A DNA stretch of 64,000 nucleotides, from assembly GCA_965214705.1 (NCBI GenBank), contig OZ243972.1, forward strand, positions 1,856,001 through 1,920,000. The letters run 5' to 3'. The translations under genes and the position numbers were made by a program. Position 1 is the first letter of the stretch; every line of letters begins with the position of its first letter. This document shows positions 1-29,153 of the stretch, one piece after another. The notes beneath the pieces were generated by a model. The model had not been told where the DNA came from and made no database searches. It saw only the letters and a program-made list of their open reading frames with translations. Origin of the DNA: Alphaproteobacteria bacterium. Its GTDB lineage: Bacteria; Pseudomonadota; Alphaproteobacteria; UBA828.

Positions 1-379
1 CGGAGTCCGGCCAGGAAATCCGGTTCGCCGACGGCACGCGGCGGGTGATGAGCATCCGCGACATCGCCGCGTCCGTTCCGGCCAGGGCCGCGCGGGAGCG
101 GATCAGGGACGAGATGTTCGCGAGCGCGGCGCTCGGGGCGATGGCGGGCGCCGGGCTGATCGGGCTCTTCCTTGCCGTCTTCTGGGTCCGGGGCGCGCAG
201 CTGGGCCGCCAGAAGCGCATCCGGGGCGCGGAGATGGTGACGGCCGCCGAGCTGCGCCGGCGGGTGCAGCCGCCGCATCACCGCGCGCTCGCGAGGCTGC
301 CGGGCGGCAAGCGGCTGCGGCCCTACTCGATCGCCGGCATCCCGTACCCGGAGAGGACGGAGACGCAGCACACCATCGT
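1..379 (+). pseudogene. traD: 5' part of TraD/TrwB-type type IV coupling protein, interrupted at attL (gene starts upstream of window)
   Basis: TM segment followed by 'KRIRGAEMV...SIAGIPYPERTETQHTIV'; continues in frame at ~27549 with VSGTTGSGKT (Walker A). Confidence 0.9.
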
Positions 380-495
380 GCGCACCTTCGGTGCTAACGT
401 ACTGATATAGCGTCGCTTCTTTCCTCCTGATTCAGCCGCTGGAGGCGGATTCGATCCCCGATTTCGCCCCGGCTGCAACATGAAGAACGGGAGGA

Positions 496-1626
496 ATGCC
501 AATGGCGACGCTCCGCCTCAACGACCGCCGCGTCGAGTCGCTCAAGCCCCGAAAGTCCACCTACGACGTTCGCGACCGCGACCTCAGGGGCTTCGGCGTA
601 AGGGTGCTGCCCTCGGGCGCCAAGCGGTATTTCGTACATGCTCAGCACGAAGGCCGGCGGATCTGGAAGATCGTCGGCCGCGCCGGGTCCATCGGCGCGG
701 GCGAGGCCCGCGAACGGGCCAGAACCTTGATCGCCGCGATCCGGAATGGAAACGACGACCAAGCCGCTGCACCGCCGGACACCCCGTTCGAGACGGTGGG
801 CGACGAAGTCTTCCGGCGCTACGCCCGAAACTGGAAGCCGTCGACCCTCAGGGTCAACCGGAACTACTACCGAAACCAGATTCTCCCCTGGTTCCAGGGA
901 CGCCCCATCGCCGACATCACCGCCCGCGACGTCAAGCAGTGGTTCACATCCCTTCACGAGACCCCTGTCGCCGCCGACCGCTCGGCTCCCGTTCTCTCGG
1001 TCATCATGCGCCAGGCCGAGGTCTACGGGTATCGGCCGGAAGGGACCAATCCGTGCGTGGGCATCAAACGGTACCGCCGCCAGGGGCGGGAGCGCTTCCT
1101 GACGGCGGCGGAGCTCCGCCGCCTGGGCGCGATGCTGGCCCGCCACGAGGCCGGCCGCCCGCAGGTCGTGGCGATCATTCGGCTGTTGCTGCTCACCGGG
1201 TGCCGCAAGGGCGAGATCATCACGCTGAAGTGGCGCTACTACCGCGAGGGCAACCTGTTCCTGGCGGACAGCAAAGTCGGGCCGCGCTCGGTCTGGCTCT
1301 CGTCCGCCGCGCGCGAGGTTCTCGACAGCGTACCCCGCAGCCCGGTCTGGGTCTTCCCCTCGCCGCAAACTGACGGATGCCTGACCGTGGCCACACTCGA
1401 CCGGGCCTGGCAGCGCATCAGAGCCGAAGCGGACCTGCGCGATGTCCGTCTTCACGATTGCCGGCACACGTACGCCAGCATGGCGCTGGCACAGGGCGAG
1501 ACGGTGCTGACCATCGGCCGGCTGCTCGGACACCGCGATCCAGCAACGACGCTGAAATACACACACATGTCCGACATCATGGTGCACGAAGCCGCCGATA
1601 CCGTCGGCGTCGTCCTCAAGGGCTAG
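496..1626 (+). CDS. Tyrosine recombinase/integrase with N-terminal arm-binding domain (Int1)
   Basis: TGCRKGE, HDCRH, LLGH, TLKY catalytic motifs; N-terminal 'DRDLRGFGVRVLPSGAKRY'. Confidence 0.93.
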   Translation: MPMATLRLNDRRVESLKPRKSTYDVRDRDLRGFGVRVLPSGAKRYFVHAQHEGRRIWKIVGRAGSIGAGEARERARTLIAAIRNGNDDQAAAPPDTPFETVGDEVFRRYARNWKPSTLRVNRNYYRNQILPWFQGRPIADITARDVKQWFTSLHETPVAADRSAPVLSVIMRQAEVYGYRPEGTNPCVGIKRYRRQGRERFLTAAELRRLGAMLARHEAGRPQVVAIIRLLLLTGCRKGEIITLKWRYYREGNLFLADSKVGPRSVWLSSAAREVLDSVPRSPVWVFPSPQTDGCLTVATLDRAWQRIRAEADLRDVRLHDCRHTYASMALAQGETVLTIGRLLGHRDPATTLKYTHMSDIMVHEAADTVGVVLKG

Positions 1627-1628
1627 GC

Positions 1629-2768
1629 ATGGCCGTGAAAAGGCGGCGTCTGACCGACGCCAACATCGCGAAGCTGGCGCCGAAGGCCCGCGAATACACG
1701 GTGTGGGACACGCGGCATGCCGGTCTCGGCGTGCGCATACGTCCGTCGGGGCACCGCAGCTTCGTCTACTGGCGGAAGGGCAAAGGCGGCGCGCGCAGGA
1801 TCACCCTCGGGTCTGCGGCGTTGATGAGCGTCGAGGAGGCGCGCGCCAAGTGCCTCGCCGTCGAGACCGCAGCCCTTGACGGCCAGCCGGAACGCGGAGA
1901 GGTCCCGACGTTCGCGGAGTTCGTCGCCGGGCCGGAGCGAGTCTTCTTCAACCGGGGCAAGCCGTCGACGCGGAAGGAGGCGAACCGGATGATCAACGCG
2001 CGTCTGCTTCCGGCCTTTGGATCGCTGCCGCTGGACCGGATCACCCGCGCCTGCGTGACCCGCTGGTTCGACGAGTTCAGCCGCACCGCGCCGGGCGGAG
2101 CCAATCATGCGTTGAACCTGCTCGGCAAGTTGCTGAACCACGCGATCGATTGCGGACATCTGCGGACGAACCCGGCCCGGAGCGTGAGGCGCAACCCCCG
2201 CCCCAAGCTCACCCGCTTCCTGTCTCGCGAGGAGGTCCGCCGTCTTCATCGTGCGCTCGACCGCCACGCCGTAGCACGGCCATTGTGCGCGCAACAGGCG
2301 GATATCATCCGCCTTCTCTTGCTGACCGGCTGCCGCCGGAGCGAGATCCTGACGCTGCGCTGGCAAGATGTGGAAGAGGACACGCTCAATCTCGGCGATG
2401 CCAAGAGCGGGCCCAGGCGGGTCTTTCTGAATGCGCCGGCCCGCGCGATCCTGAAGCGGCAGCCGCGATCCGCTTGCGCTTACGTCTTTCCTTCCCCGAA
2501 AAATCCCGGACGACCGCGTTCGCACAACCTGGCGCTCTGGCGTTCGGTGCGCAAGGAGGCCGGGATCGAGGATGTGCGCCTGCATGACCTCAGACACACG
2601 TACGCCAGCCACGCCGTGCTGCAAGGCGTCCCGTTGCCCGTCGTCTCACGCCTGCTCGGCCACAGGCGACCAAGCATGACGCTGCGCTATGCCCATGTCG
2701 GCGACCGCGAGACCGAAGCGGCATCGGAACGTATCGGTGCAGCTATCTCGCGAGCATTGGATGGCTGA
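1629..2768 (+). CDS. Second tyrosine recombinase/integrase (Int2), paralog of Int1
   Basis: ATG 1629 just after the Int1 stop; TGCRRSE, HDLRH, LLGH, TLRY motifs. Confidence 0.92.
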   Translation: MAVKRRRLTDANIAKLAPKAREYTVWDTRHAGLGVRIRPSGHRSFVYWRKGKGGARRITLGSAALMSVEEARAKCLAVETAALDGQPERGEVPTFAEFVAGPERVFFNRGKPSTRKEANRMINARLLPAFGSLPLDRITRACVTRWFDEFSRTAPGGANHALNLLGKLLNHAIDCGHLRTNPARSVRRNPRPKLTRFLSREEVRRLHRALDRHAVARPLCAQQADIIRLLLLTGCRRSEILTLRWQDVEEDTLNLGDAKSGPRRVFLNAPARAILKRQPRSACAYVFPSPKNPGRPRSHNLALWRSVRKEAGIEDVRLHDLRHTYASHAVLQGVPLPVVSRLLGHRRPSMTLRYAHVGDRETEAASERIGAAISRALDG

Positions 2769-2850
2769 TTGCCTCACACCCGATCCACTTGCAAACTCCT
2801 GAGCGGATGCTGCAAGTGCTGGGCTCGCGGCCGGCACCGCAGCGGCCGAT

Positions 2851-3108
2851 ATGAAGAAGGTCACGCTCGGTACTGAGGGCGCCTACCCGCCCTTCAATTG
2901 GATCGACGAGAACGGCGACCTCCAGGGCTTCGACCTCGAAATCGGCAACGCGCTCTGCGCGGCGGCGAACCTGGAGTGCACCTGGGCGGTGAGCTACTTC
3001 TTCATCCTGCTCTCGCGCTTCATCGAGCACCGCCTCTCCGGCCACATGCGCGAGCGCCCGGCAAGCAGCAGCTCAATGTGCCGCGGCCGTCCGCTAAACC
3101 GCCATTGA
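2851..3108 (+). pseudogene. Remnant of a polar amino-acid ABC transporter substrate-binding protein, apparently fused to a permease-like tail
   Basis: 'VTLGTEGAYPPFNWIDENGDLQGFDLEIGNALC' is a family-3 SBP N-terminus; only ~45 aa before switching to 'YFFILLSRFIEHRL'. Confidence 0.7.
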
Positions 3109-3190
3109 GTGTTAAATCACAGAAGTGGGAGTTCGCTTTCGACCCGCCCCCCGATATTATGACACAGGAACCGCTGGAGCCCCGGAACCA

Positions 3191-3824
3191 ATGGAATCGT
3201 GGCAACTGCTTGCAGACATCTGGGATAACGATGTCGCCCGGGCATTCTCTATCGCCATTGTCGTCATCCTTGCCCTGAGTCTACTCGGCTTGCGCTCCCT
3301 TGGCGCGTTAGCCGCCTTCTCTCAACACGGCACCACACTCTGCACAACGCTCGGCGTCCTAGGAACATTTACGGGCATCTTTCTAGGCCTTCTGCAATTC
3401 GATGTCGCCGAAATTGATGCCAGCGTGCCGGAACTCTTGGCGGGCCTCAAGATCGCGTTCTCCACCAGTATCGTGGGGTTAGGTGCGGCGGTGCTCCTCC
3501 GAGCCATCCGATCTTTTGTTCCAACTCGTTCCGAAGGCGCTACAGAGACAACGCCAGAAGCCATTCATCAGACGCTACGAGAAATCAACAACTCGATTAC
3601 CCAAGCTTCTAGAAACCAAGCCGAGGCTCTAACCCAGGTCAGAAGCGCAATTTCAGACGATACTGATAGCAGCCTGGTAACGCAGACACAAAAGCTGCGG
3701 ATAGCTGTTGAAGACGGCAATCTCCAACTGATCGAGCAGTTTAAGCAGTTCGCTGAAAGAATGGCGGAAAACAACTCTCGTGCACTAATCGAAGCACTGG
3801 AACAGGTGATCAGGGACTTTAACG
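3191..3824 (+). pseudogene. zorA: ZorA-like MotA/TolQ/ExbB-family membrane protein, truncated by IS
   Basis: 'TTLGVLGTFTGIFLGL..FD..IDASVPELLAGLKIAFSTSIVGL' plus helical tail 'ENNSRALIEALEQVIRDFN'; lower GC; breaks at IS end 3825. Confidence 0.7.
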
Positions 3825-3844
3825 GTAAGTGGGGCAAATTCTGG

Positions 3845-4515
3845 GAGCGCCAGGCTAACTCTGTCGTGGATAGCCGGTGAAAGTCCGGTGAAGGGAAGGA
3901 CTAACGAACCACCCTTGCCTTGAGCCGTGCGTCGGCCTTCGCGAGGAGGCAGGCGAAGCGTCGGTAGAGGTGCGCGTGGGCAGGACATTGAGCACCGAAA
4001 ATGCCGTCATTCGGAGTGCCGAGGCCATCCAGAAGGTCGAAGGCAACACCGGCCGCCCGCTTTCGTGAGGGCCGGCAGGGCTCCGCGGTGTCCAAGACCC
4101 CAGGCACGCGCGTACGTCCACACAGGGGACCTGGGAGGCCTCTTCATCACCCGTGCCTCAGAGTGCGGGTCGTGACGGGAAGGGTGGATGCCCATAGCCG
4201 TCGATGTACGATGGGGAGGAATCTGACTCGGTCGTAGTACCGTTGAAACGGGGGAACAAAGGGGCGTGACAACCTTGGCGGACTTCGTGGAGGAAAGGAC
4301 CGGGGCCAACGGGAGATCGGGGACCTGAAGCATGTGCCGGGCACAGAACCGGGTAAGCATGTCACAGGAGGGTCTCCGAACACGCCGCCGTGCGAGACGT
4401 CGCAAGAGCGACGAGAGTGCGCCGGACGTCTGACCGGAGGCAGGAGCCGGATGCCTTAGCGGGCACGTCCGGATCTGCGCGGGGGGCGCTGGGTAACCAG
4501 CGTCCCTACCGCGAA
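3845..4515 (+). ncRNA. ORF-less group II intron, copy 1 (671 nt)
   Basis: 5' GAGCG; EBS1 ccagaa (4029-4034) complementary to exon ttctgg; DV gagccggatgcc...cacgtccggatc; DVI ending cctaccgcgaa; only RT remnants in DIV. Confidence 0.88.
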
Positions 4516-5186
4516 GAGCGCCAGGCTAACTCTGTCGTGGATAGCCGGTGAAAGTCCGGTGAAGGGAAGGACTAACGAACCACCCTTGCCTTGAGCCGTG
4601 CGTCGGCCTTCGCGAGGAGGCAGGCGAAGCGTCGGTAGAGGTGCGCGTGGGCAGGACATTGAGCACCGAAAATGCCGTCATTCGGAGTGCCGAGGCCATC
4701 CAGAAGGTCGAAGGCAACACCGGCCGCCCGCTTTCGTGAGGGCCGGCAGGGCTCCGCGGTGTCCAAGACCCCAGGCACGCGCGTACGTCCACACAGGGGA
4801 CCTGGGAGGCCTCTTCATCACCCGTGCCTCAGAGTGCGGGTCGTGACGGGAAGGGTGGATGCCCATAGCCGTCGATGTACGATGGGGAGGAATCTGACTC
4901 GGTCGTAGTACCGTTGAAACGGGGGAACAAAGGGGCGTGACAACCTTGGCGGACTTCGTGGAGGAAAGGACCGGGGCCAACGGGAGATCGGGGACCTGAA
5001 GCATGTGCCGGGCACAGAACCGGGTAAGCATGTCACAGGAGGGTCTCCGAACACGCCGCCGTGCGAGACGTCGCAAGAGCGACGAGAGTGCGCCGGACGT
5101 CTGACCGGAGGCAGGAGCCGGATGCCTTAGCGGGCACGTCCGGATCTGCGCGGGGGGCGCTGGGTAACCAGCGTCCCTACCGCGAA
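4516..5186 (+). ncRNA. ORF-less group II intron, copy 2 (apparently identical, head-to-tail)
   Basis: 671-bp direct repeat of 3845-4515 with no spacer. Confidence 0.88.
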
Positions 5187-5451
5187 GGACGGATTGATGC
5201 GCCGTCTCATGTAGACGCTGGTGTGATGGCGCTTGGGGGTACCCGTTACGCCTGGCGCTGACGGTAGTCCTTGGTGATGGGCATCGGGTCACATTCAGCG
5301 TTTCCTGGCCATCGCAATTCCAGTTCCGGGTGCAGCGACCATGGGCCCGGCCATGTGACGCGACCGCGTTACCGATCCGGATCAGGGGGTTGAGCGAGCA
5401 TTTTTCGCTGGACTTCGCGCGCTTTATGGACAGCGTGCGCGCGGAGGGTCC

Positions 5452-7119
5452 ATGGTCGATTCGCTTCAAACCCAGGCTCAGTTGATCGCGGCTCTGCGGG
5501 CGACGATCGCCGCGCAAGCGGAAACGATCCTTGAGTTGCGTGCCGAGAACGAGCGTCTCAAGGAGACGGTCGCCGTGCACACCGAGACAATCGAGATGCT
5601 CAAGGCCGAGATCCGCCAACTCAAGAGACTGCCCGGCAAGCCGGATATCAAACCGGGCGCGGGCGACGGAGACGGCAAGGGCTCGGGCGGCAAGGGCCTG
5701 GAGGGAGGCCGGCGCTCTTCGGGCGCCTCGAAGAAGCGGCGAGGCCGCAAGCGGGGCCGCGAAGAGGCGAAGCGGGTGGTGCTGTCCGTGCCGGACGCGC
5801 CCGAGGGCTCGGTTCACAAGGATTACCAGGACTATCACGCCCAACTGCTGGAACTCGACGTCTGCAACGTCGTCTTTCAGCGCGAGCGCGTGGTGACGCC
5901 GGACGGGCGCATCGTCGTCGCTGAGCTGCCGGACGGCGTGATCGGCGGCTTCAACCTGGAGCTGCATCGCTTTGTGCTGATGCTCTATCACCAGGGCCAG
6001 AGCACGATCCCGCGCATCACTGCCCTGCTCGATGCGATCGGCCTCGACATCTCGGAGCGCCAGGTGCGGCGCATGCTGACCGGGAACAGGGAGCCGTTCG
6101 TCGGCGAGGCGGCGGAGATCCTGAAGGCGGGTCTTGAAGGGGCGGCCTGGATCTCGGTCGACGACACCGGCGCGCGCCATCAAGGCCGCAACGGCTATTG
6201 CATCTCGATCGGCAACGATTGCTTCGGCTGGTTCGGAACGACGGGGTCGAAGAGCCGGCTGAGCTTCCTCGACACGATGTGCGGCGCCCTCGGCGAGTAC
6301 GTGCTGAACGATGAAGCGTTCCGGTACATGGAGAGCCACGGCATGCCGCGTCGGGCGCTTGACGCGTTGAGGGGGCATGCCGGTGGTCGGTTTGACGGGC
6401 CTGACCTGTGGATGGCGTTCCTCGACGGGCTCGGGATCGACGCCCCCAGGGCCCGGCTCCTCGCCACCGAGGGCGCCCGGCTCGGCTGTCTGTTCGCCCA
6501 TGGCCTGCTGCGCGAGGACAGCGCCATCCTGAGCGACGACGCCGGCCAGTTCGACCTCGGCCTGCACCAGTTCCTGTGCTGGATCCATGCCGAACGGCTC
6601 TACCGCACGTTGCCGGTCTGGAGCGACGCGAGCCGTGCGGCCGTCGATGAGGTGCGCGGCGGCATCTGGCGGACCTACCGGCTGCTCGGCGCCTATTGCC
6701 GCCAGCCAAGCCCCCGCAGACGCGCCGTCGTCGAGCGCAGCTTCGCGCGCACCTTCCGGGCCGGCACCGGCTACCGCCTGCTCGACGAGCAGATCGGGCG
6801 CACCCTCGCAAACCGCGACAAGCTGCTCGCCGTGCTCGACCGCCCCGACGTGCCTGCCCACAACAATCAGCGCGAGGGCGACCTTCGCGTCTGTGTCGTC
6901 CGCCGCAAGGTCTCGGGCGGAACCCGCTCGGATCGAGGCCGTGCCTGCCGCGACGCCTTCCTCACCCACATGAAGACCTGTGCCCGCCATGGTATCTCAT
7001 TCTGGAACTACCTCGGTGACCGCCTGGGCATCCCAGGTGCCGAAAGTGTCCCCTGGCTCCCGGACCTCGCGCGCCAGCGACCGACCGCTGGCCCAGTGCT
7101 CGCCCCGCAGGCCATCTGA
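5452..7119 (+). CDS. IS66-family DDE transposase
   Basis: N-terminal coiled coil; ISVDDTG, SDDAGQF, CWIHAER, HNNQREGDLR motifs. Confidence 0.85.
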   Translation: MVDSLQTQAQLIAALRATIAAQAETILELRAENERLKETVAVHTETIEMLKAEIRQLKRLPGKPDIKPGAGDGDGKGSGGKGLEGGRRSSGASKKRRGRKRGREEAKRVVLSVPDAPEGSVHKDYQDYHAQLLELDVCNVVFQRERVVTPDGRIVVAELPDGVIGGFNLELHRFVLMLYHQGQSTIPRITALLDAIGLDISERQVRRMLTGNREPFVGEAAEILKAGLEGAAWISVDDTGARHQGRNGYCISIGNDCFGWFGTTGSKSRLSFLDTMCGALGEYVLNDEAFRYMESHGMPRRALDALRGHAGGRFDGPDLWMAFLDGLGIDAPRARLLATEGARLGCLFAHGLLREDSAILSDDAGQFDLGLHQFLCWIHAERLYRTLPVWSDASRAAVDEVRGGIWRTYRLLGAYCRQPSPRRRAVVERSFARTFRAGTGYRLLDEQIGRTLANRDKLLAVLDRPDVPAHNNQREGDLRVCVVRRKVSGGTRSDRGRACRDAFLTHMKTCARHGISFWNYLGDRLGIPGAESVPWLPDLARQRPTAGPVLAPQAI

Positions 7120-7187
7120 GATCCTGCCCAAACCGGCCCTCAAGGGCGACTATCACGCCGCTTCATCCCAGGATTTGCCCCTCTTAC

Positions 7188-7257
7188 GCTCCAAGTCTTG
7201 ATTGACTGAACATGCGCCAACAACGATCAAGGTCAACGCAAGCATGGGCCACTTCAT
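7188..7257 (-). pseudogene. Lipoprotein 5' fragment cut by the IS right end
   Basis: aggag RBS, then MKWPMLALTLIVVGAC SVNQDLE (lipobox VGAC), ending at the IS boundary. Confidence 0.55.
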
Positions 7258-7646
7258 TGTGTTCTCCTGATTTTATCTACTGCGGAGGTTGCACTCCAAT
7301 CGGGGGCAGGAGTTCTCGCATCCCCGTTAGCTGTGGACAATGGGCTCGCCGGGGTCCGAGATCAACGCCGCCATCCGCCGCGGCCTCGAAGACGAAGGGG
7401 TGCTGCACGGCCCAGAGCTGGGTGTTGTGCGGCGCGAAAGTGCGCCGAACAACACCTCAGGCTTGTGAGACTTTCTTGCCATCGTCGATCCTCCTCTTTC
7501 CATAACCTAAGGCTGGACCAATCTCATGGTGGAGGATCACTCTGCCTTACATTCGAGACTACTACTAATTTTCAATTCCTGGAGATCTATTTCGGTTTGA
7601 GAGTATACAGAAGTATCGCAACTGTAAATCGTGTAAACGTCCTTTG

Positions 7647-7763
7647 CTACGAGATGGTGGAAATCTCTGGGGCCTCACCTTCTCCCACAATCACTAATTT
7701 CGCGGTAAGGGGAACAGTTCTCTGTTGGTTCGTTATATGGAGCATTCCGTCGAAAGTGATGTT
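7647..7763 (-). CDS. 3' exon of small secreted protein interrupted by the group II intron
   Basis: In frame with exon 15451-15278: ...SSIQDG|NITFDGMLHITNQQRTVPLTAKLVIVGEGEAPEISTIS*. Confidence 0.65.
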   Translation of the reverse strand, partial: NITFDGMLHITNQQRTVPLTAKLVIVGEGEAPEISTIS

Positions 7764-7835
7764 TTTGCGGTAGGAACGCCGGTTACCCAGCGCCCCCCGC
7801 ACAGATCCCCGCAGGCCCGTTAGGGCACGAGGCTC

Positions 7836-8021: not shown

Positions 8022-8185
8022 GGTTAAGGGTTGGGCAGGCTCTCTCTCGAGAGCCTGCCCAACCCTTTTGAACGGAGGCGCGGGCCACGAGAGGCGAAGT
8101 TGAGCGTAAGCGTTACGCAGACCCCATGCCGGAATCTGGGTTGACTACGAGGGGGACTTGTTGAGGAGCGCCGTGAGCGCGCGAG

Positions 8186-12508: not shown

Positions 12509-12514
12509 GCGCCG

Positions 12515-20227: not shown

Positions 20228-23200
20228 TTCCCCGGTCCCGGCTCATTCGCAGGGCGGCCTGCTTTTCCTGTTCCTGCGCGACCCTGTTGCGGATCTCCTC
20301 TTCCCGCTCCCGAACTACATCCGGGCCTGCGCCGGCGGCGCCCAGATGGGCGGCGAGTTCGTGTTGCGGCATTTCCTTCCTGATTGCCGCCGCCTCGTCG
20401 AGAACCTCCTTCTCCTTCTGCCCGCAGTCCTGCCGGGCCTGTCGACGCTCCTCGAACGAGTTGGTCGTGACGTCCATCTGCGTCAGAGCGTTCCGCGCGC
20501 GCTCGAACTCCGCGGCCCGTTCGAGGAACGCATGGACCCGATCCCGGTTGAGCGCCCAGCGTTCGTCCCTGGCGAGAAGGCCGTCGACCGTGTCGCGCAG
20601 CCTCTCCGGCAGATGCGGCCTGGCATCGAGCGAGCGGGCGCGCTCCATCAGCGCGGCATAGGCGCGGCTGTCGAAGCCGATCCCGCCCGTCTTCTCCGCC
20701 CACTGCTGCACGACCGAAGACAGCACGTCCGTCTCCCGTGCCTCGACCTCGATCAGCGCGCTGTCGAGGCGGTCCGTTCCCTCGGCCAGCGCCTTGCGCT
20801 CGGCCGGTAAGGCGGCGAGATGGGGCGCATGAGGGGCGTCGTTCGCCAGCATCGCGCGGGCCTCGGCGAGCAGGGGCTCCGCCTGCCGCCGCCAGCCGGT
20901 CAGGGCGACGAGCGTCGCGGGACGCTCGGGGCAGTCCGCCGTCAGCGCGTCAAGCCGTGCGGGCCATTCCCGGATCTGCCGGCAGACCGGTTCGCACCGG
21001 GCGTGATAGTCGAGCCATGAGGCGACAACCTCCTGCGTGCGCGCCGGCAGCGCCGCCTGCGCGGAGAGCGCCTCGGCCCGTGCCATCAGCTCTCCGTAGC
21101 GCGGCACGTGGAACGCCTCGGTCCCGGTCTCGCGCTCCTGCCGGTTTACCTCCTTCGTCAGCCACCCGAATGCCCGGTAGCTGTCTTTCCTTAGCGCATC
21201 GCTGATTTCCTCCGCCGCCTCCCGGACAGCTTCGCGCCCGCCCGGCTCGGCGTCCAGGTAGGGCGCATGGACATCTTCCGGGCGCAGCATGTCCCCGGCC
21301 ATGGCCTCCAGCTTGACCCCTTCCTCGCGCCAGGACTGCCGCGCGGGATGGTCCGGATCGAGCCCGCCGGGCTCGTCCTGCGGCAGGTCCGCCGCCTGCC
21401 ACGCCGCGATACGGCCGGGCAGGGCGCGCACCTCGTCCGCCAGCGCCGTCTGCGCCGTATCGACCTCCCGCCATTCCGCCACCCCGCGCTGCGCCTGCGC
21501 ATCGAGTCCCTCGGCGACCGCGAGCCTTTCGCCAAGCGCCGCTACCTGCCGATAGCCCGGCGCGCAAATCTCCGGGACGACGCTCTCAGCCGCCCGTTCG
21601 CGAAGCGCGTGCCACGCCCGTTCGAACCGCCCGGCATCGTCGAGGAGGCGCGTGCGTTCGAGCATATCGACGGCGTCTTCCAGACCGGCGCGTCCGCCCG
21701 GCATGGCATGGAGGTGTCGGGCCACATCGCGATGCACCACCTCATGGTGTGCCGCCACGCGGTGGGCCGCTTCGCCGTCGGCCTCCACCAGACTCCGGCC
21801 TGCCTGTAGAAGCGCGGCCCCTTCATCGCGCCAGGCAGCATGTTCGGGGAGTTGCTCCACCGGCACTCCTTGCGAGGAGGCCGCCCAGCTGAGCTCCGGC
21901 CAGCGCCGCCAATGGTCCCGGATGCCCTCGACGAGACCGCGTACCTCGCGGTCGTGCGCGAGATGCTCCTCGTGTTTCGCCAGCATGGTGTCGGTGAGGC
22001 GGCGCATGTCCTCCGGCAGGTCCTCGATCTGCGCGAGCGCAGCAGCCTGGGCCATCGTGTCCCTGTAGCCCGGGAGGAGGAACGGAACGGTGTGCGTTGC
22101 CTCGCCCTCCTGCAGAAGCGCCCGCCAGTCCGCAGCCAGCGCCGCGAACTCTTCGGGGTCCACCACGGGGGGCTCGGACAGGTCGATCCCCAGCGCCTCC
22201 AGCGCCCCGTCCTCGCTCCGGTCGTATGCCATGCTCTCGATGAGCGCGTCGCGGTCGTCGGTCAGCAGCAGGAACTCTTCAGAGACCCGGCTGATCTCGA
22301 CATGGAACAGCTCGCGGTCGACCCAGCCGCCCGCGTCCAGCACCGCGATCGCCGCACGCGCCGTCCGGCCCTGCGCAGAATGCACGGTGGAACAGTAGGC
22401 ATGATCGAGATGGCGCAACTGCGGGTCGGCAAGCGCGAGACCGAACTCCCGGCCGCCCTCGCGGAAGAGCACCCGCCTGTAGCCGATCTCCACGATCTCC
22501 GCCTCGCCGCCATTGACCAGGTCCGGCCCCCGGGGATGCCTGCCGCGGCCGGGCGGGGCCTTGCGGTTGCGCGTCCAGCGGATCATATCGCCAGCGCGCA
22601 GCTCGATCCGCTCGGTGTCGCAGACGCTCAGATAGCGCGCCGCATTGCCCGAGGGCCGGAACCGGCGCTCGCCGTCCGCATGGGCCAGCACGACCCTGCC
22701 GTCGTCGTGGCCCATGACGGTGCAGACGTCGTTCGCGCGGCAGCCGAAGACGTCGCGGTGGAACACGACGGTGTCGCCGGGCTCGTAGCTGCGGATATCG
22801 GAAGCCAGCGCACGGGTGAGCCGCCGGTCGACCAGGCGGTCGACGGCCAAGGTGCGGCCCCGCAACACGCCTTCCTCCGCGAGCCCTTCGCGCACCGCCT
22901 CGTTTGCCTGCCGGCGGATTGCGTGCGTGGGGGCGAGGATCAGGGTGTCCGCCCGCTGCTCCGGCGCCAGCGTGAGCCAGCGCCGCGCCGCCTCGATGCC
23001 GAGCTCCTCGCGGGGCGCCTCGCGCACCCGGTTGCCCAGCGCCGCGATCGCCGCGCCCGGCTCCCCCTCCCTGACGCGGCCTACCGTCGCGCGCAGCTCC
23101 GGGTCGCGCTGGCGCAGCACCTCGTCCATGGTCGCCGTCGCCATGCCCGCCTTCTGCAGCAGACGGAAGGGCTGGCCCGCATCCACCGCCCTCAACTGCG

Positions 23201-25043
23201 CGGTGTCGCCCACCAGCGCGACCCGCGCCACGTCCAGATCGCGCGCGATGCGCAGCAGCGCCTCCATGCGCACGGTGTCGATCATCGAGGCCTCGTCCAC
23301 CGCCAGCACCACGCCCCCGTACTCCTCCCGGCCCCGCGCCAGCCGCGCCGGGTCGGAGAGGTCGTTGAAGCGGGTCAGGAAGTGCTGCAGCGTCCGTGAG
23401 GGGATGTCCGCCTCTCTGGCGAGAACCCGTGCGGCGGCGGCCGAGGGCGCAAGGCCCTGTATCGTCCTGTCCCCGAGAAGCGCCTTCACCTCCCTCAGCA
23501 TAGTGGTCTTGCCGCTGCCGGCATGGCCCTGCACGCCGACCGTGAAGTCGTCCGACAGCAGCACCGTGCGGACCGCCTCCCCCTGGCCCTGCGTGAGACG
23601 CGACGCCCCGAGCCGCGCCTCCACGGCATCCGCGCCGGCCAGCGCCATTCCCCGTGAGCGCCCCGCCCGCATCGACGCCAGCACCTGGCGTTCGGCCTTC
23701 ACCGCGCGGTCGGTGACGAAGGCCCGGTCCATGCCCCGGCGTTCCGCCTCGATCAGCTCGCCGCCGGACACGAGCCGCGCGATCGCCGCGTCGACCTGGG
23801 CCAGAGTGTAGCGCCCCGGCGCGTGACCCAGCGCCACCGCCCTGATCTCGGCCTCCGGGACCGCGGTGCGCCTCTCCGCAACATGCGCCACCGCCCGCGC
23901 CACCGCCTCCAGGACTCCGCGCTCCGGTTCCTGCGACAGCTCCGCCGGTGCCGGTGAGCGAGGGGGCGTGGGATTCACCCCCGCCGACGCGGCAACGCCG
24001 TCGCGGGGCTGCCTCGGCAGCGCCGGCAGCGCCGGCGCGCGCTTCAGGCTGCGGATCTCGTTGGGAGGCAGGTCGGGCGCAGGCACGCGCGGCACTCCAA
24101 CCCGCTCGCCGGTCACCGGGTCGAGGGGCCGGGACGGCGTGAGGGCCGTCTTCTCCCGGACCAGACCCAGTGCCCGCGCCCGTTCGCGCCATTCCGGCAC
24201 CAGGTCCGCAAGGCCCTTGTCCTCCTTGCGCCGGCGCGTGTGAAGTGCCGCCATCTGCGTGTGCTTCGCCGTGTAGGACAGGTCCTGGCGCTCCAGGTAC
24301 GCAAGTATCTCGCGGCGCCTGCCCGAGAACGCGTCCAGGAAGGAGCGGTCGTAGCCCGCAAGCTCGAACCCCGGCACCCGTCCCACCAGGCTCGGCGAGA
24401 CGGCCATGCCCAGCGCCTGAAGACGCAGCGCGAGCTCGTTCCGGTAGTACGCCCCGATCAGCTTCTCGCTGCGCCGGATCTTCGTCGGCTCCACGCTCCG
24501 CCATTCCCCGGACGCATTGCGCGTCATGTTGGCCAGCACGCAGTGAGTGTGCAGCTGCGGGTCCTGATCGCGGCTCGCGAGATGCCGGAACCCCGCCACC
24601 ACCATGCCCTCCGCCTTCACCCGGGGACGGCGCCGGGTCGCGGGGTCCCAGCCCCGGGTCTGAAGGAGGTCCGCTTCCACGAAGCCCAGCGTCGCCCGCA
24701 CCGCTTCGTCATGAGCCCGGATCACGCGCCGGTCGCCCATCACCAGCGCCTCCAGCGATACCGACTTGGGCGCCGACAGGGTGATGTCCCAGCCGGGCCG
24801 GTGATCGTGCTCCCCTTCGCGCATCCGGCCGAGACGCAGGTCCGTCCCCGGCACGTATCCCGACAGCACCGATTCGAAGCGCGAGGGACGCACATGGGCC
24901 TTGAGCCCCAGCGCCTTCGCCGCGTCCCCGTACCAGAAGCTGGCCTGGCGGTGCTCGGGATCGTTCTTTGCGTAGTAGCCGTCGCGCTCGTAGTAGGTCA
25001 CCGCCATGGCGGACGAACGAAGCTCCACCACCGTGGCTACCAT
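20228..25043 (-). CDS. MobF (TrwC/TraI-like) relaxase-helicase of the integrated element; last codons displaced to 15737-15749
   Basis: YYERDGYY, DITLSAPKSVS, DPQLHTH, GHAGSGKT, VDEAS, HSAQG. Confidence 0.92.
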
Positions 25044-25085: not shown

Positions 25086-25751
25086 TCAACCGGACCATAG
25101 CCATCCGTAGAGGACGTGTATGCGGCTCTCGATCAGCATGCCGAAGACCAGGACGATCAACCATACGAGAACCGTCTTCAGGCCGAACTTCGGGCCGGCC
25201 GTTTGCATGAGGATGTCATAGAGAAGCCCGCGGATCGGACCGGACTGCTGGATGACTTCGGAGCGCGTCGCCGCGAGGCCCTTTTCGATCCTGGCCGCGG
25301 CCTCCCCGATCTCGGCCGCAACCCGGTCCGCGGTGGTTTCCATACCCCGGTCGACGCGGTCTGCTGCCGCTGCCGCCTTCGCCGCCGCTTCCTCGATCCT
25401 GCCGGTTTGTTCTGCGACCGCCGCCGCCGCGTCGTCCTCCCCCGACGCGGCTTCTGCCTGCGCAGCCTCGGCGACACGGGCCACGAGTCCGTCGCCGAAG
25501 GACTCGAGCGCCTCCTGAGTCAGTGGCGCAGGCACTGCCTCAGGCTCCGGCGCTGACCGTTCCGTCGACACCGCTTCTCTCAGACCGGCCACCTGCTCCC
25601 GCAGGTTCCGCACCCCGGTCAGCAGCTCCTCGATCGCGGCCGGATCGATAGTGGGCGCCGGCGGCGAAGCGGGCGGGCCGTCCGCAGGCAGGCTCGCCAG
25701 AAGGTCCGGCCGGCTCGTCCGTCCGCTCTTCCCGTCGCTCTCCGCAGTCAC
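25086..25751 (-). CDS. Hypothetical coiled-coil protein with C-terminal TM helix, just upstream of the relaxase
   Basis: Ala/Glu-rich helix then VLVWLIVLVFGMLI. Confidence 0.65.
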   Translation of the reverse strand: MTAESDGKSGRTSRPDLLASLPADGPPASPPAPTIDPAAIEELLTGVRNLREQVAGLREAVSTERSAPEPEAVPAPLTQEALESFGDGLVARVAEAAQAEAASGEDDAAAAVAEQTGRIEEAAAKAAAAADRVDRGMETTADRVAAEIGEAAARIEKGLAATRSEVIQQSGPIRGLLYDILMQTAGPKFGLKTVLVWLIVLVFGMLIESRIHVLYGWLWSG

Positions 25752-26040: not shown

Positions 26041-26516
26041 GGCTTCGCTGCCGGCGGCTCGGTCGGGACCGTGACCGAGGTCACGACCGAGGCTGCAGCG
26101 ATACGTGCCCGCTCCTCGCCCAGCACCGAGGCGAGCGCCAGCCGCAGCTCTTCCGAGCGGCCCGACCCGGCCATCGCAGACGCCCACGCGGCGAACATCA
26201 CCGCGATCCTCTCCTGCATGTCGCGCACAAGGGGACCCGCATCCTCCCCCTCCAGCATCAGCGCGTGAACCTCCCGCAGCGCCTCCAGCTGCTCCCGCTG
26301 CTCGTCCTTTGCCAGCGCCAGCGCGGGCCACTCGTGCCGGGGACCCGCGTCCTCTTCCGATGCGTCCCGCTCCACCAGCCCCAGCAGGTAGCGCGCGATC
26401 GACAGGCCGCGCCGGTCGGCCTTGTTGCGAACGGTCTCCCACTCCGCGTCCGTCGCCGAGATCGAGATGTGCCTGCTCGGCCTGCGCGCCTTCCGCCGAC
26501 GCCGCACCCGTCTCAC
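25980..26516 (-). CDS. RHH/MobC-like accessory protein 3
   Basis: ISISATDAEWETVRNKADRRGLSIARYL; GTGA overlap with upstream gene. Confidence 0.7.
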   Translation of the reverse strand: MRRVRRRRKARRPSRHISISATDAEWETVRNKADRRGLSIARYLLGLVERDASEEDAGPRHEWPALALAKDEQREQLEALREVHALMLEGEDAGPLVRDMQERIAVMFAAWASAMAGSGRSEELRLALASVLGEERARIAAASVVTSVTVPTEPPAAKPEVAPEASAGETDSRQDRLL

Positions 26517-26824
26517 GGCGCACGCTCCCTCGCAAGGACGGAGATCGCGCTCAAAAGGCTCAGCCCGCTGCCCCCCGGAAGCTCGCGCCGGAGAGCCCGC
26601 ACGAATGCCTGCAACTCCCGAACCCCGTCCCGCTGTTCCACCTGTTCCTCTTCCGTGAGCACCAGAGGATGGCGGTCCGGATCGTCGGCGAGCGCGAGAT
26701 CCAGAATATAGCGCGACACGGTCTTCTCCGCCGCCGCCGCGCGCTCCCGGATCATCGCCTGCTCGGCCGGCTTGCAGTGCAGGCTCCGCTGACGCCTGCC
26801 GGGCCGCGCCGCCGACTCCGTCAC
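26513..26824 (-). CDS. RHH/MobC-like accessory protein 2
   Basis: SLHCKPAEQAMIRERAAAAEKTVSRYIL. Confidence 0.7.
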   Translation of the reverse strand: MTESAARPGRRQRSLHCKPAEQAMIRERAAAAEKTVSRYILDLALADDPDRHPLVLTEEEQVEQRDGVRELQAFVRALRRELPGGSGLSLLSAISVLARERAP

Positions 26825-27192
26825 GATCCTTCCTCCTCAGCCGGCACCGCCGCCTTCCAGCGGTTCGCAGCGCCTGGATCGGTGAGCCGGTCCAGCATGC
26901 CCTCCCGATCGATCCATTCGTCCACCGCGTCGCAGGCGTCCTCCCAGGCCGCACCGGCGCCCGCCCCGCGCAGCCGCCTCTCCTCCAGCATGGACATCAC
27001 CAGCATCTCGCGGACCGCCCGGCGCAGAACCTCCGGCGGCAGAGGGTCCCGGTCCAGCGCGCGATGGATCACGAAGCGCGACAGGTCCATGCCGCTCGCC
27101 GCAGCCGCCCGGCCGATGCGTTCCCACTCCGCATCGGTGGCCATGACCGCGCGCTGGCGCCGTCCGCCGGCATCCTCCCTCATGGTGGCCAA
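26821..27192 (-). CDS. RHH/MobC-like accessory protein 1
   Basis: ATDAEWERIGRAAAASGMDLSRFVI. Confidence 0.7.
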   Translation of the reverse strand: MATMREDAGGRRQRAVMATDAEWERIGRAAAASGMDLSRFVIHRALDRDPLPPEVLRRAVREMLVMSMLEERRLRGAGAGAAWEDACDAVDEWIDREGMLDRLTDPGAANRWKAAVPAEEEGS

Positions 27193-27537
27193 CCGCCCGA
27201 CAATACATGCCGCGACCGGGACACGCGTCCCCTAGAGCATGCAGAATATATGACGAAAATCCTATGGCATTCCTCGCGACCGCTAGTATATGCCGCCATT
27301 GTGTCCTCGCAGAGCCGCCCACACTAGTCACAAGACCATACCCGAGCTCTACGCCGATATCCACAACCCACTTCCCCGCGTGCAACTCCTGAGAGACACA
27401 AGATCTGCCATTGTGTTCTCCAACTCCGCCCAATCCGCCCTTGACAAGCATCCTAACCCACTGTAACGTAGTCCACATACGGGAGAAAAGAGCAACCCTG
27501 CGTCAGCCCCGATGCACTGTTAATTCGCCTAGTATAG

Positions 27538-29153
27538 AGCACACCAGCGTCTCGGGCACCACCGGGTCCGGCAAGACGGTGCTGATCTCGGACCTGGTGA
27601 CGCAGATCCGGGCGCGCGGTGAGCGCTGCGTTCTCTACGACAAGATGGGCTCCTACACCCGGTCCTTCTTCGACAAGGACCGGGACGTGCTGCTCAACCC
27701 GCTCGACGCGCGCGCGCCGCGCTGGTCGCCGTTCCTGGAGGCGAGGAACCCGCGCGACTTCGACATGATGGCGGCCGCGCTGATCCCGCAGCAGAAGGAC
27801 ACGGTGGACCCGTTCTGGGTGACGGCGGCGCGCCAGCTCTTCGCCAACGGGGCGGGCGTGCTGCGGGGCAAGGGCGAGACGCGCAACAAGGTCCTGGTCG
27901 ACCACCTGCTCAAGACCGACCTGACGGCCCTGGCCCAGGCCATGGAAGGCACGGTTGCCCAGTCGATCGTCGATCCCGAGAACCCCAAGACCGCGCTCTC
28001 GGTGCGCGCCATGCTGACCGCCAACCTGGGCGCATTGGAGTTCCTGCCCGACGAGGGCAAGCCGTTCTCGATCCGGGAGTGGATATCGGACGAGGAGCGC
28101 GAGGGGTTCCTGTTCCTCACGTCGCGGGGCGACCAGCACGCCAGCCTGCGCGGCCTCATATCCACCTGGCTGGAGATTGCCGTCAACGCGATGCTCTCGC
28201 TCGCCCAGGACGACGGCCGGCGCATCTGGGTGATCCTCGACGAGCTGCCGACGCTGCACCAGGTGCCGTCGCTGCAGCCGGGGCTTGCCGAATCCCGCCA
28301 GTTCGGCGGCTGTTTCGTGCTGGGTGTCCAGGTGGCCTCGGCGCTCCGCGACCTCTACGGCCGCAACGGCGCGGAGACGATCTCGGGGCTCTGCGGAACC
28401 CGTGTCGTGCTGGCGGCGCCGGACCGCGACACCGCGCAATGGTCGGCCGACAGCCTGGGGCGCAGCGAGGTCGAGGAGGTGTCCGAAGGGGTCAGCTACG
28501 GCGCCAACACCATCCGCGACGGGGTGAGCCTGACGCCGCGCCGCGAGCTGCGCGCGCTCGCGCTCCCTTCCGAGATCATGCGGTTGGAAAACCTCGCGGG
28601 CTATCTCAAGTTCCCCGGCCCCTTCCCGGTCGCCTCGATCCGCCTGAAATACGTCGCCCGGCCGAAGGCTGCCGAGCGGTTCGTGCCGCGCGAGGGGGAT
28701 GGCCCGGCGCCCGCCGGGCAGCCGGGCGGTGTCGTGATTCCTCCCGAAACCGGGGATGCAGCGTCCCGCGGGGAGGACGGCATGACGATCCCGGAGCGGG
28801 TGGAAGCAAATCCGTCAGCCGGCGTTGCGCTCCCGGCGCCGGAGGGCGGGCGGACATCCGCCGCGCGCCAGGGTGAGCTCGACCTTCCGCCGCTGCCGGG
28901 AGAGGCCGGGAGCGCGGAAGCGGAGCCCGAGGGACCCGGGAATCGCGGTTCCGGAAAGAAAGACGGCCGGGGCCAACCGCAGGCCGGCGTGGTGACGGCC
29001 GCGGCATCGGAGGCGGACGGGGAAGCTGCGACGGCGGAAGACACGCCGCCGGACGACGGGCTGGAAGCGCAAACCCAGCCGGCCGGGGCGCCCGCGACGG
29101 AGGAGGAAGGCGCGGCGGGGCCGGACGCGGGCCGCGCCTCCGACTGGGCCTGA
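27538..29153 (+). pseudogene. traD: 3' part of TraD/TrwB coupling protein (ATPase domain and acidic tail)
   Basis: GTTGSGKT, LLNPLDAR..RW, DPFW, ILDELPTL, SRQFGG. Confidence 0.93.

What the first reader, a model, noticed from the sequence alone, without database searches (positions are those of the whole stretch)
367..27550. 27-kb twin-integrase mobilizable element inserted at the Walker A region of a conjugative coupling-protein gene
Seen: traD stops at ETQHTIV (379) and resumes 27 kb later at HTSVSGTTGSGKT, with a 12/13 direct repeat at both junctions, so recombination restores an in-frame T4CP. The element has its own MobF relaxase and RHH genes but no T4CP or mating-pair genes. Established: MobF relaxases need a T4CP, and IMEs targeting ICE conjugation genes such as traG are known in streptococci. 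Inference: while integrated, the element disables the host's coupling protein; excision rebuilds the protein it needs for transfer, which would gate conjugation on its own excision.
Basis: partly seen in the sequence, partly recalled or inferred. Interest (0 to 1): 0.8.

Follow-up and report, generated by a model that had tools for sequence, protein, structure and literature searches.

The report
Mobilizable element splitting a conjugation gene
A 27-kb mobilizable element with two integrase genes really does split a conjugation coupling-protein gene, but it belongs to a multi-copy family that inserts at many sites sharing only a five-base motif, so the hit looks incidental, not a built-in switch.

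Summary
A TraD/TrwB-type coupling-protein gene stops at window 379 and resumes in frame at 27540, with a 12/13 direct repeat at both junctions.

The 27,171-bp insert carries two intact tyrosine integrases, a MobF relaxase and two RHH genes. It has no T4CP or mating-pair genes. Its 17-kb middle is mostly IS debris.

The "targets the Walker A region to gate conjugation" reading is not supported:
- The genome holds 36 left ends of this family.
- The flanks share only ACACC plus a variable 5-nt overlap.
- The interrupted genes include a PKS, transporters, transposases and integrases.
- Six intact T4CP paralogues remain in the genome.

One other genome has a different T4CP codon hit by a 45-kb relative.

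At attR the 5-nt overlap is foreign, as expected for GInt, SE or CTnDOT-like heteroduplex recombination.

Verdict: a real insertion by a new proteobacterial twin-integrase MobF IME family with loose target choice. Interest is moderate.

The parts
1..380 (+). N-terminal part of the TraD/TrwB-type coupling protein (T4CP). The gene starts upstream of the window at G000:C1:1855784, and 199 aa precede the junction.
   Evidence: Orthologues are 83-87% identical with open frames of 570 aa or more.
367..379 (+). attL direct repeat AGCACACCATCGT. ACACC is at 370-374 and the 5-nt overlap ATCGT at 375-379; the overlap is the target's own sequence.
380..495 (+). Conserved left end of the element (G CGCACCTTCGGTGCTAAC...), shared by 36 loci in the genome.
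496..1626 (+). Int1, a 376-aa P4-type tyrosine integrase. The R, H-x-x-R, H and Y catalytic residues are present.
1629..2768 (+). Int2, a 379-aa second tyrosine integrase that abuts Int1. Catalytic residues are present. About 37% identical to Int1.
2769..20224 (.). Variable cargo not shared with sibling elements. It holds an SBP fragment (2851-3105), a ZorA2 fragment (3125-3877), an IS66 fragment (5452-7116), an IS66 copy at 8104-11034 (Tnp 8189-9928, TnpB 9998-10345), IS91-type Y2_Tnp 11270-12508 with integrase 12518-13555, a group II intron RT (13601-14998), a second integrase (15817-16854), an IS110-like gene (16864-18354) and Y2_Tnp 18834-19916.
20181..25043 (-). 1621-aa TrwC/MobF relaxase-helicase of the element.
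   Evidence: Pfam TrwC 255.9 bits. NCBIfam MobF 258.9 bits against a cutoff of 100. Three copies about 90% identical lie elsewhere in the genome.
25089..25751 (-). 221-aa protein of unknown family, conserved in the relaxase module.
   Evidence: no family found.
26516..27192 (-). Two small NikA-like RHH genes (26516-26821 and 26824-27192). Both matches are weak and below Pfam's cutoff.
27236..27545 (+). Conserved right end of the element. It ends ...TATAGAGCACACC, where the family consensus is ...TAAGTGCACACC.
27538..27550 (+). attR direct repeat AGCACACCAGCGT. The overlap AGCGT differs from the target's ATCGT.
   Evidence: The sibling at C3:909021-922929 has AGCGT at both ends.
27540..29153 (+). 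C-terminal part of the T4CP, starting 4 codons before Walker A (GTTGSGKT).
29155..32232 (+). The host element's own 1025-aa TrwC/MobF relaxase, directly downstream of the T4CP.

Best explanation
A 27,171-bp integrative mobilizable element (IME) has integrated inside the traD/trwB-type coupling-protein gene of a chromosomal F-type conjugative element. The IME is built from a conserved two-integrase module at the left, a conserved MobF-relaxase/RHH module at the right, and a variable middle that here is filled with IS elements. It belongs to a multi-copy family, found only within this genus among the genomes searched, that behaves like a tyrosine-recombinase transposon. Both integrases look catalytically competent and probably act together (inferred). 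The recombination site is ACACC followed by a 5-nt overlap that differs from copy to copy, then the element's CGCACCTKCGGTGC. Integration needs ACACC in the target and a similar, not necessarily identical, overlap. Mismatched overlaps leave an imperfect repeat, and the element carries the old overlap to the integrase-distal end. Here the target's ATCGT lies at attL and a foreign AGCGT at attR. The T4CP hit is therefore most likely one incidental insertion among dozens, tolerated because the gene is dispensable to the cell and six paralogous T4CPs remain. Precise excision would restore an in-frame T4CP with Ile or Ser at one position. There is no evidence that this is a selected regulatory device, and whether this copy still excises is unknown.
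For: Shown:
- The split gene and empty sites are documented.
- The core consists of two blocks shared with siblings, at 83% and 90% nucleotide identity, around unrelated cargo.
- 31 Int1-like loci were found, 26 with an adjacent Int2.
- 36 left-end motif hits were found, 34 preceded by ACACC and 2 by ACACG, with unrelated flanks.
- 14 of 15 BLAST-found right ends end in (G)CACACC followed by unrelated sequence.
- For those 14 right ends, the best co-oriented left end differs in the 5-nt overlap by 0 (5 cases), 1 (4 cases) or 2 (3 cases) positions; 2 have no partner.
- Other genes are split precisely with the same 10-nt repeat: PKS ACP|KS, an Int2-like gene, and IS66, IS630 and IS4-type transposases.
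- Target families are diverse.
- In relatives, 20 of 25 left ends found follow ACACC, and the same family sits in Oxidored_FMN, GMC oxidoreductase, LivF-like and other genes.
- Copies 96.7-99.2% identical in Int1 lie at different sites, so the family has moved recently.
- Both integrases carry the R..HxxR..H..Y residues.
- Six intact T4CP paralogues remain.

Inferred: cooperation of the two integrases, the heteroduplex mechanism, and the tolerance argument.
Against: - A second, independent T4CP gene in another genome (G012) is split at a different codon (PRDFD|TMA) by a 45-kb family member with a perfect ACACCATGGC repeat. That makes 2 T4CP hits among about 50 characterised sites, more than the roughly 0.2% of the genome that T4CP genes occupy would predict.
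- Mobile-element genes are strongly over-represented among G000 targets (10 of 19 scanned flanks, plus this one).
- The T-to-G difference at attR could be a later point mutation and not a carried-over overlap.
- The paired-end list was built by requiring at most 1 mismatch, so it is biased. The less biased pairing is.
- No excision product could be looked for, because only assembled contigs of public runs were available.
Confidence: 0.8

Rival explanations
1. The element specifically targets the T4CP gene, so that conjugation by the host ICE and by the element itself is possible only after the element excises and rebuilds the T4CP.
For: Excision within the repeat would be in frame. The element has a MobF relaxase but no T4CP. 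A second T4CP gene is split by a relative in G012. The same hypothesis has been proposed for streptococcal IMEs in traG (PMC5357655 and PMC5704250, passages read).
Against: The two T4CP insertions lie at different codons, and the shared requirement is only ACACC. 35 other left ends in the genome lie elsewhere. Siblings with a 90%-identical relaxase sit in a PKS gene and in an integrase gene. Six of 10 orthologous T4CPs carry the identical site unoccupied. Six intact paralogous T4CPs remain in the cell.
Confidence: 0.07
2. The family prefers other mobile elements as landing sites, either because such DNA is a safe haven or because it is the DNA present during conjugative entry. T4CP genes are then hit as part of that preference. 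The benefit would be hitchhiking inside ICEs, not gating.
For: 10 of 19 scanned G000 flanks are transposase, IstB or integrase genes, and this T4CP adds one more. Insertions are nested within other family members, including at the catalytic-Tyr codon context TAC ACC CAC of an integrase. There are two T4CP hits.
Against: In relatives, only 2 of 11 scanned flanks are mobile-element genes. Purifying selection against insertions in needed genes would give the same pattern in a genome this rich in mobile DNA. I did not measure the mobile-DNA fraction of the genome, so the enrichment is not quantified.
Confidence: 0.25
3. The copy is a fossil. It can no longer excise, and the T4CP and its ICE are permanently inactivated.
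For: The 17.4-kb middle is crowded with at least seven IS, intron or transposase genes. The right-end core reads GAGCACACC instead of the family's GTGCACACC. The nearest Int1 relative is only 85% identical in nucleotides, so no recent sister copy exists.
Against: Both integrase genes, the relaxase and both ends are full length without stops. The two T4CP halves carry no further stops.
Confidence: 0.3
4. The split is an assembly artefact, or the product of homologous recombination between repeated elements, and not an insertion.
For: The genome holds many similar elements, and some flank exchanges between copies are likely; for example, C1:3381546 and C2:610228 have crosswise-matching overlaps.
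Against: Both halves of one gene lie in the same orientation and frame at the two ends of one element, with the family's typical 10-nt repeat. A short-read contig bridges attL with 0 differences.
Confidence: 0.02

Closest known systems
Streptococcal/Firmicute IMEs integrated in traG (VirD4 coupling-protein gene) of Tn5252-superfamily ICEs (Coluzzi 2017, PMC5357655; Guedon 2017, PMC5704250; passages read)
   Same: An IME sits inside the coupling-protein gene of an ICE and disrupts it. Two different sites within the gene are known. The hypothesis that IME excision restores a functional conjugation module is already stated there.
   Different: Those IMEs use serine integrases that are specific for traG. 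Here two tyrosine integrases use dozens of unrelated targets. The host here is a proteobacterial F-type ICE, and the relaxase is MobF, which the 2017 review says no known canonical IME encoded.
GInt genomic islands (Bardaji 2017, PMC5385486; passages read)
   Same: Several tyrosine recombinases sit in tandem at one end. The flanking repeats are 10-11 nt, imperfect, and hybrids of element and target. Excision and integration rewrite the overlap and thereby shift target preference.
   Different: GInts have three integrases plus ginD and no relaxase, and they are largely site-specific. Here homology between siblings ends at the stop of the second integrase, a MobF relaxase module is present, and the sites are many. 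Sequence relatedness to Gin proteins was not tested.
Strand-biased circularizing integrative elements, SE-6945/SE-6283 (Nonaka group, PMC9345347; passages read)
   Same: Two tyrosine recombinases are present. The short overlap from the donor site ends up next to the integrase-distal end (attR) while attL keeps the target's sequence, exactly as in this copy. More than one target per genome is used.
   Different: The SE core is intA-CDS2-intB-CDS4 with 19-bp terminal inverted repeats, T-rich 6-bp overlaps and no relaxase. Here the two integrase genes abut, the fixed motif is ACACC, and a subterminal inverted repeat is only weakly supported.
CTnDOT/NBU-type and Tn916-type tyrosine recombination with non-identical overlap or coupling sequences (PMC2817482, abstract seen in the listing; details recalled)
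   Same: A short conserved motif lies next to a variable overlap of about 5 bp that need not match between partners.
   Different: Those use a single integrase and Bacteroidetes or Firmicutes hosts. In this family overlaps are usually identical or differ by 1-2 positions, so homology seems to matter more.
MTnPi1-3 of Prevotella intermedia, IMEs with a duo of tyrosine integrases, low specificity and 2-6 copies (as described in PMC5704250, passage read)
   Same: These are mobilizable elements with two tyrosine integrases, low integration specificity and several copies per genome.
   Different: They occur in Bacteroidetes and prefer AT-rich sites. No sequence comparison was made here and the original paper was not read.

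Membership tests
Integrative mobilizable element (IME) as defined in PMC5704250 | Own integration/excision module | tested here: met
   Two full-length Phage_integrase proteins with catalytic residues, defined ends and a target repeat.
Integrative mobilizable element (IME) as defined in PMC5704250 | Own relaxase and/or oriT but no complete mating-pair apparatus | tested here: met
   The MobF relaxase scores above NCBIfam's cutoff. No T4CP or T4SS family was found in the scanned insert ORFs, and no T4CP tblastn hit lies inside the insert. The oriT was not located.
Integrative mobilizable element (IME) as defined in PMC5704250 | Excises and is mobilised by a helper conjugative element | not testable with these tools
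   Only contigs of public runs were available.
MobF (TrwC) relaxases | N-terminal TrwC relaxase domain plus SF1B helicase | tested here: met
   Pfam TrwC 255.9 bits and AAA_30 153.4 bits. NCBIfam MobF 258.9 bits against a cutoff of 100.
TraD/TrwB type IV coupling proteins (the split host gene) | TrwB_AAD_bind domain with Walker A and an N-terminal membrane part | tested here: met
   The C-part scores TrwB_AAD_bind 446.7 bits and TraG-D_C 66.5 bits. GTTGSGKT lies directly after the junction. The N-part aligns with orthologues whose open frames are 570 aa or more. NCBIfam TraD_Ftype scores 458 bits against a cutoff of 521 for the C-part alone.
GInt | ginABCD operon: three integrases plus a small fourth gene | tested here: not met
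   Only two integrase genes are present, and sibling homology stops at the end of Int2.
GInt | 10-11 nt imperfect hybrid repeats at both ends | tested here: met
   The repeats are ACACC plus 5 nt, with 0-2 mismatches. The attL overlap comes from the target and the attR overlap is foreign.
Strand-biased circularizing integrative elements (SE) | Four-gene core intA-CDS2-intB-CDS4 | tested here: not met
   Int1 ends at 1626 and Int2 starts at 1623/1629, with no gene between them.
Site-specific traG-targeting IMEs of Firmicutes | Integrase specific for the coupling-protein gene | tested here: not met
   35 of 36 left ends in the genome and 24 of 25 left ends in related loci are not in a T4CP gene.

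The most novel reading that the evidence does not exclude
The twin-integrase elements are a so far undescribed class of proteobacterial MobF IMEs. Their two recombinases form a heteromeric enzyme with a fixed half-site (ACACC) and a 5-nt overlap that is rewritten at each hop, so each copy re-programmes its own next target. They preferentially colonise other mobile elements, including coupling-protein genes. In genomes holding several related ICEs, they would then act as reversible, excision-dependent off-switches on individual ICEs.
Probability: 0.12. Interest if true: 0.7.

Novelty: new variant of a known kind. Interest (0 to 1): 0.4.

Why it matters
The specific claim, an element that gates conjugation by splitting and rebuilding the coupling protein, would have been a striking regulatory device. 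The evidence says it is most likely a by-product of loose target choice, and the idea is already in print for Firmicute IMEs.

What remains of value is the family itself. It is an abundant IME family in a sponge-associated alphaproteobacterial genus, with 36 ends in one genome. It combines two tandem P4-type tyrosine integrases with a MobF relaxase, and it inserts at ACACC plus a variable overlap.

A 2017 review (PMC5704250, passage read) stated that no known canonical IME encoded a MobF relaxase and that none of that category was described in Proteobacteria. I did not check whether this has changed since.

The many natural copies give a ready-made data set on how overlap homology steers target choice by a two-recombinase system. 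They also show how such elements erode resident ICEs.

Tried and rejected
- **Plasmid collection, DNA search.** blastn of the integrase pair found no match. The protein search found only relatives at 41% identity or less. Many of those records have two places per record, and the Shewanella MR-1 megaplasmid has an adjacent pair. I did not follow these up beyond reading the upstream sequence.
- **BIM "bipartite module" of Cupriavidus (PMC3414803, passages read).** It is one recombinase plus an unrelated protein, so it is not this.
- **Subterminal inverted repeat between the two element ends.** It scored 24 against 20.3 +/- 3.8 in shuffles for this copy, and 25 against 18.2 +/- 3.2 for the family consensus. 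This is suggestive only and is not used.
- **Excision or empty-site evidence from public runs.** All runs on offer were assembled contigs. Laying four of them showed one contig bridging attL and no informative loose end at 380. A sponge-metagenome contig (X2) starts at 350 and has only 30 letters left of the junction, below the tool's threshold, so it is not counted. No conclusion on excision or habitat is drawn.
- **Truncated T4CP genes in G008 and G015.** Three were checked as possible further insertions. They are internal deletions without family ends or integrases. The other short open frames lie in fragmented assemblies and were not examined.
- **Regex search for right ends.** It missed most known ends and was replaced.
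- **Longest-ORF choice of flank frames.** It was unreliable in this 67% GC genome and was replaced by GC3-based choice. Of the 51 flanks listed, 30 were sent to Pfam. The other 21 had short or poor ORFs or duplicated a target; 11 of those are from G000.
- **Literature searches for tandem or paired tyrosine integrases and for IMEs in coupling-protein genes.** No description of this family was found. This is not proof that none exists.
- **Supplementary tables.** Those of the GInt, SE and streptococcal IME papers were not available and could bear on the comparisons.
- **The search of earlier findings.** It was closed.

Full report
**1. Observation**

The window is G000:C1:1856001-1920000 of a 7.92-Mb, 67% GC genome in three contigs.

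- Frame 3 of window 3-380 encodes the end of the N-terminal part of a coupling protein (...IAGIPYPERTETQHTIV). The frame then runs ten codons into foreign sequence to a stop at 408-410.
- The gene starts 217 bases upstream of the window (L016:17784-18380).
- At 27540 the reading resumes as HTSVSGTTGSGKT... This 537-aa part matches Pfam TrwB_AAD_bind (446.7 bits) and TraG-D_C. Its best NCBIfam match is TraD_Ftype.
- AGCACACCATCGT (367-379) and AGCACACCAGCGT (27538-27550) are the only matches with up to 1 mismatch in the window. Chance predicts 0.05, and 0 of 100 shuffles gave two.
- Five intact paralogues in the same genome and ten orthologues in other genomes of the genus read HTIVSGTTGSGKT without interruption.
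- A 730-nt contig from public run X17 covers window 1-672 without a difference and so bridges the left junction. That run may be the source of the assembly.

The insert is 27,171 bp (380-27550).

**2. Anatomy of the insert**

- The left end carries two abutting tyrosine-integrase genes, Int1 (496-1626) and Int2 (1629-2768).
  - Each has Arm-DNA-bind_3, SAM-like and catalytic domains.
  - Each has the catalytic Arg, His-x-x-Arg, His and Tyr residues.
- The right end carries, on the minus strand:
  - two small NikA-like RHH genes (weak matches);
  - a 221-aa protein of no family;
  - a 1621-aa relaxase-helicase that passes NCBIfam's MobF cutoff (258.9 bits against 100) and Pfam TrwC.
- Comparison with three sibling elements in the same genome shows that only these two blocks are conserved: window 380-2765 at 66-83% and 20225-27550 at about 89-90% nucleotide identity.
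- The 17.4 kb between them is cargo. Here it consists of a solute-binding-protein fragment, a ZorA2 fragment, one partial and one complete IS66, two IS91-type Y2 transposase/integrase pairs (one interrupted by an IS110-like gene) and a group II intron reverse transcriptase.
- No T4CP or T4SS family appears among the insert's ORFs. tblastn with the T4CP finds nothing inside the insert.

**3. A large family with loose target choice**

- tblastn finds 31 Int1-like loci (at least 55% identity, at least 300 aa) in this genome, 26 with an Int2-like gene directly behind.
- Aligning the DNA upstream of them shows a sharp boundary. All copies share CGCACCT(G/T)CGGTGCTAAC... inwards. Outwards the sequences are unrelated except for ACACC, placed 6 bases before the boundary.
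- A motif scan finds 36 such left ends. 34 follow ACACC and 2 follow ACACG.
- Fifteen right ends found by BLAST align up to ...TA(A/G)GTGCACACC and diverge after it. One of them has a degenerate core.
- The attachment site therefore reads: right end ...GTGCACACC, then five variable bases, then a purine, then CGCACC... of the left end.
- Where both ends could be paired, other genes are split as cleanly as the T4CP, each time with ACACC plus five bases at both ends:
  - a polyketide synthase between ACP and KS (...AAPNTLV | TLVFDYPN...);
  - an Int2-like gene of another family member (...AREYTV | TVWDTR...);
  - IS66, IS630-type and IS4-type transposase genes.
- Pfam scans of 19 further G000 flanks gave:
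  - 10 transposase, IstB or integrase genes;
  - 4 other genes (FAD monooxygenase, PLP decarboxylase, DctM transporter, PKS);
  - 5 without a family.
- 21 of the 51 flanks listed were not scanned.

**4. The overlap**

- For the 14 right ends with a core, the best co-oriented left end within 130 kb has an overlap differing at 0 (5 cases), 1 (4 cases, including this element) or 2 (3 cases) of five positions. Two have no partner. Unrelated 5-mers would differ at about 3.75 positions on average.
- An earlier list of ten pairs required at most 1 mismatch and is therefore biased. In its four one-mismatch pairs the difference lies at overlap position 1 or 2.
- In this element the empty sites show that attL keeps the target's ATCGT, whereas attR has AGCGT.
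- AGCGT is the overlap at both ends of the sibling element in the PKS gene, whose relaxase module is about 89% identical to this one.
- The simplest reading is that the element arrived with AGCGT, recombined with a target differing at one position, and left its old overlap at the integrase-distal junction. A later point mutation cannot be excluded.

**5. Relatives**

- Int1-like genes (E up to 1e-80) occur in 15 of 20 other genomes of the genus. They occur in 0 of 20 genomes of other genera, families and orders searched. The maximum elsewhere is 15 matches per genome, against 36 here.
- A left end was found in 25 of 33 related loci examined, and 20 of those follow ACACC.
- Targets there include:
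  - an Oxidored_FMN gene (same site in three genomes);
  - a GMC oxidoreductase (two genomes);
  - a LivF-like ATPase (read by eye, since Pfam gave no family for the 65-aa piece);
  - cytochrome b561, a glycosyltransferase, a dioxygenase, an IS630-type transposase and an Eco57I-like gene.
- One locus, G012:C16, is a second T4CP gene. It is split about 70 codons downstream of Walker A (...PRDFDTMA | TMAAALIPQQ...) by a 45-kb insert with a perfect ACACCATGGC repeat and the family's ends.
- Among 59 matches to the T4CP N-part in 17 of 21 genomes, these are the only two interruptions by family members that I found. Three other truncated copies that I examined are internal deletions. The remaining short frames lie in fragmented assemblies and were not examined.
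- Within G000, some Int1 genes at different sites are 96.7-99.2% identical, so the family has moved recently. This copy's nearest Int1 is 85% identical.

**6. Host element and paralogues**

- Upstream of the split gene lie TraE, TraK, a TrbI-like TraB, TraV, TraC, an S26 peptidase, TraW, an SSB, TraN, TraH and TraG.
- Downstream lies a 1025-aa MobF relaxase.
- This is an F-type integrative conjugative element or integrated plasmid.
- The genome has six more T4CP genes of this family with long open frames, each near a TrwC-type relaxase.

**7. How it most likely works**

- Shown: the split, the empty site, the ends, the two-block core, the many unrelated targets, and the ACACC-plus-overlap repeat with occasional mismatches.
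- Inferred: Int1 and Int2 act together on an asymmetric site. One half-site (GTGCACACC) is mirrored in targets only by ACACC, and the other half-site (CGCACCTKCGGTGC) has no counterpart in targets.
- Inferred: strand exchange spans the variable bases, tolerates one or two mismatches, and resolves the resulting heteroduplex. The element can therefore carry an old overlap into a new site and adopt a new one. This is as documented for GInts and SEs (passages read) and, from recall, for CTnDOT and Tn916.
- Transfer would use the element's MobF relaxase and a helper's T4CP and F-type pore. Which of the seven T4CPs serves is unknown.
- Integration in this T4CP inactivates one ICE. Precise excision would rebuild the frame with Ile or Ser at the position that is Ile in all 15 intact homologues examined.
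- Nothing shows that this is selected for.

**8. Comparison with what is known**

- IMEs inside the VirD4-type gene of ICEs, and the proposal that their excision restores a functional conjugation module, are in print for Firmicutes. Those involve serine integrases specific for traG (PMC5357655, PMC5704250).
- Low-specificity, multi-copy IMEs with a duo of tyrosine integrases are mentioned for Prevotella (PMC5704250, passage). I did not compare sequences.
- GInts share the imperfect hybrid repeats and the overlap rewriting, but they have three integrases plus ginD.
- SEs share the donor overlap at attR, but they have a four-gene core.
- The same 2017 review states that no known canonical IME encoded a MobF relaxase and that none of that category was described in Proteobacteria.
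- My literature searches found no description of this family. This is not proof of absence, and supplements were closed.

**9. Verdict**

The gating and targeting inference is not supported.
- The element is a member of a new-looking variant of a known kind: a proteobacterial twin-integrase MobF IME with ACACC-plus-overlap targeting.
- Interest is moderate. It rests on the family and its natural record of target choice more than on the T4CP insertion itself.

Noticed in passing
window 11270-13555 (-), 15817-19916 (+), 35563-37848 (+): There are three copies of a two-gene unit: a 346-aa tyrosine integrase directly followed by a 413-aa IS91-type Y2 transposase with a zinc-binding domain. The middle copy is interrupted by an IS110-like gene (16864-18354). 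This looks like a composite IS91-family element that carries its own integrase.
   Followed up: partly
window 13601-14998 (-): A group II intron-type reverse transcriptase (RVT_1, 116.6 bits) lies directly beside one of the IS91-type units.
   Followed up: no
window 3125-3877 (+): A 251-aa fragment matches the type II Zorya protein ZorA2 (NCBIfam 108.9 bits, far below the cutoff, covering positions 16-221 of 550). It sits in a low-GC patch (56%) of the cargo and is probably the remnant of a defence system once carried by the element.
   Followed up: no
window 45166-50610 (-): A second giant MobF relaxase (1815 aa, about 45% identical to the element's relaxase) has 80-89% identical copies elsewhere in the genome. 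No family left end lies in the window next to it. Its element was not delimited.
   Followed up: partly
G000:C1:360460-382339: Two family members are nested. A 15.6-kb element sits inside the Int2 gene of an outer element. Beyond the outer element's right end, a 12-nt unit containing the repeat (CGACACCACCCG) is reiterated in tandem at least five times. This is unexplained; it could be slippage or repeated abortive recombination.
   Followed up: partly
G000:C1:3007578 (locus L054): One family member is inserted in another integrase gene exactly at the catalytic-tyrosine context ...NYTHL (TAC ACC CAC). The family's ACACC target motif is thus encoded by the conserved Y-T-H of its own kind of integrase, which may explain the frequent nesting.
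   Followed up: partly
G012:C16:174358-219540 (loci L020, L091, L094): A 45-kb family member splits another T4CP paralogue at PRDFD|TMA with a perfect 10-nt repeat.
   Followed up: yes
G000:C1:3381546 and G000:C2:610228: Two elements with 99.1% identical Int1 genes lie on different replicons and have crosswise-matching overlaps. The left overlap of one equals the right overlap of the other. This suggests homologous recombination between the copies and hence an exchange between replicons.
   Followed up: no
locus L014 (Shewanella oneidensis MR-1 megaplasmid, NC_004349.1:32496-34993): An overlapping pair of tyrosine integrase genes is about 41% identical to Int1 in its first member. 19 of the 25 listed plasmid hits also have two or more matching places per record, so tandem P4-type integrase pairs may be widespread in Proteobacteria.
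   Followed up: partly
window 32222-32716 (+) and 39238-40341 (-): A NYN-domain protein lies directly after the host relaxase, and a YspA/SLOG-family protein lies further on. Both may be accessory genes of the host conjugative element.
   Followed up: no
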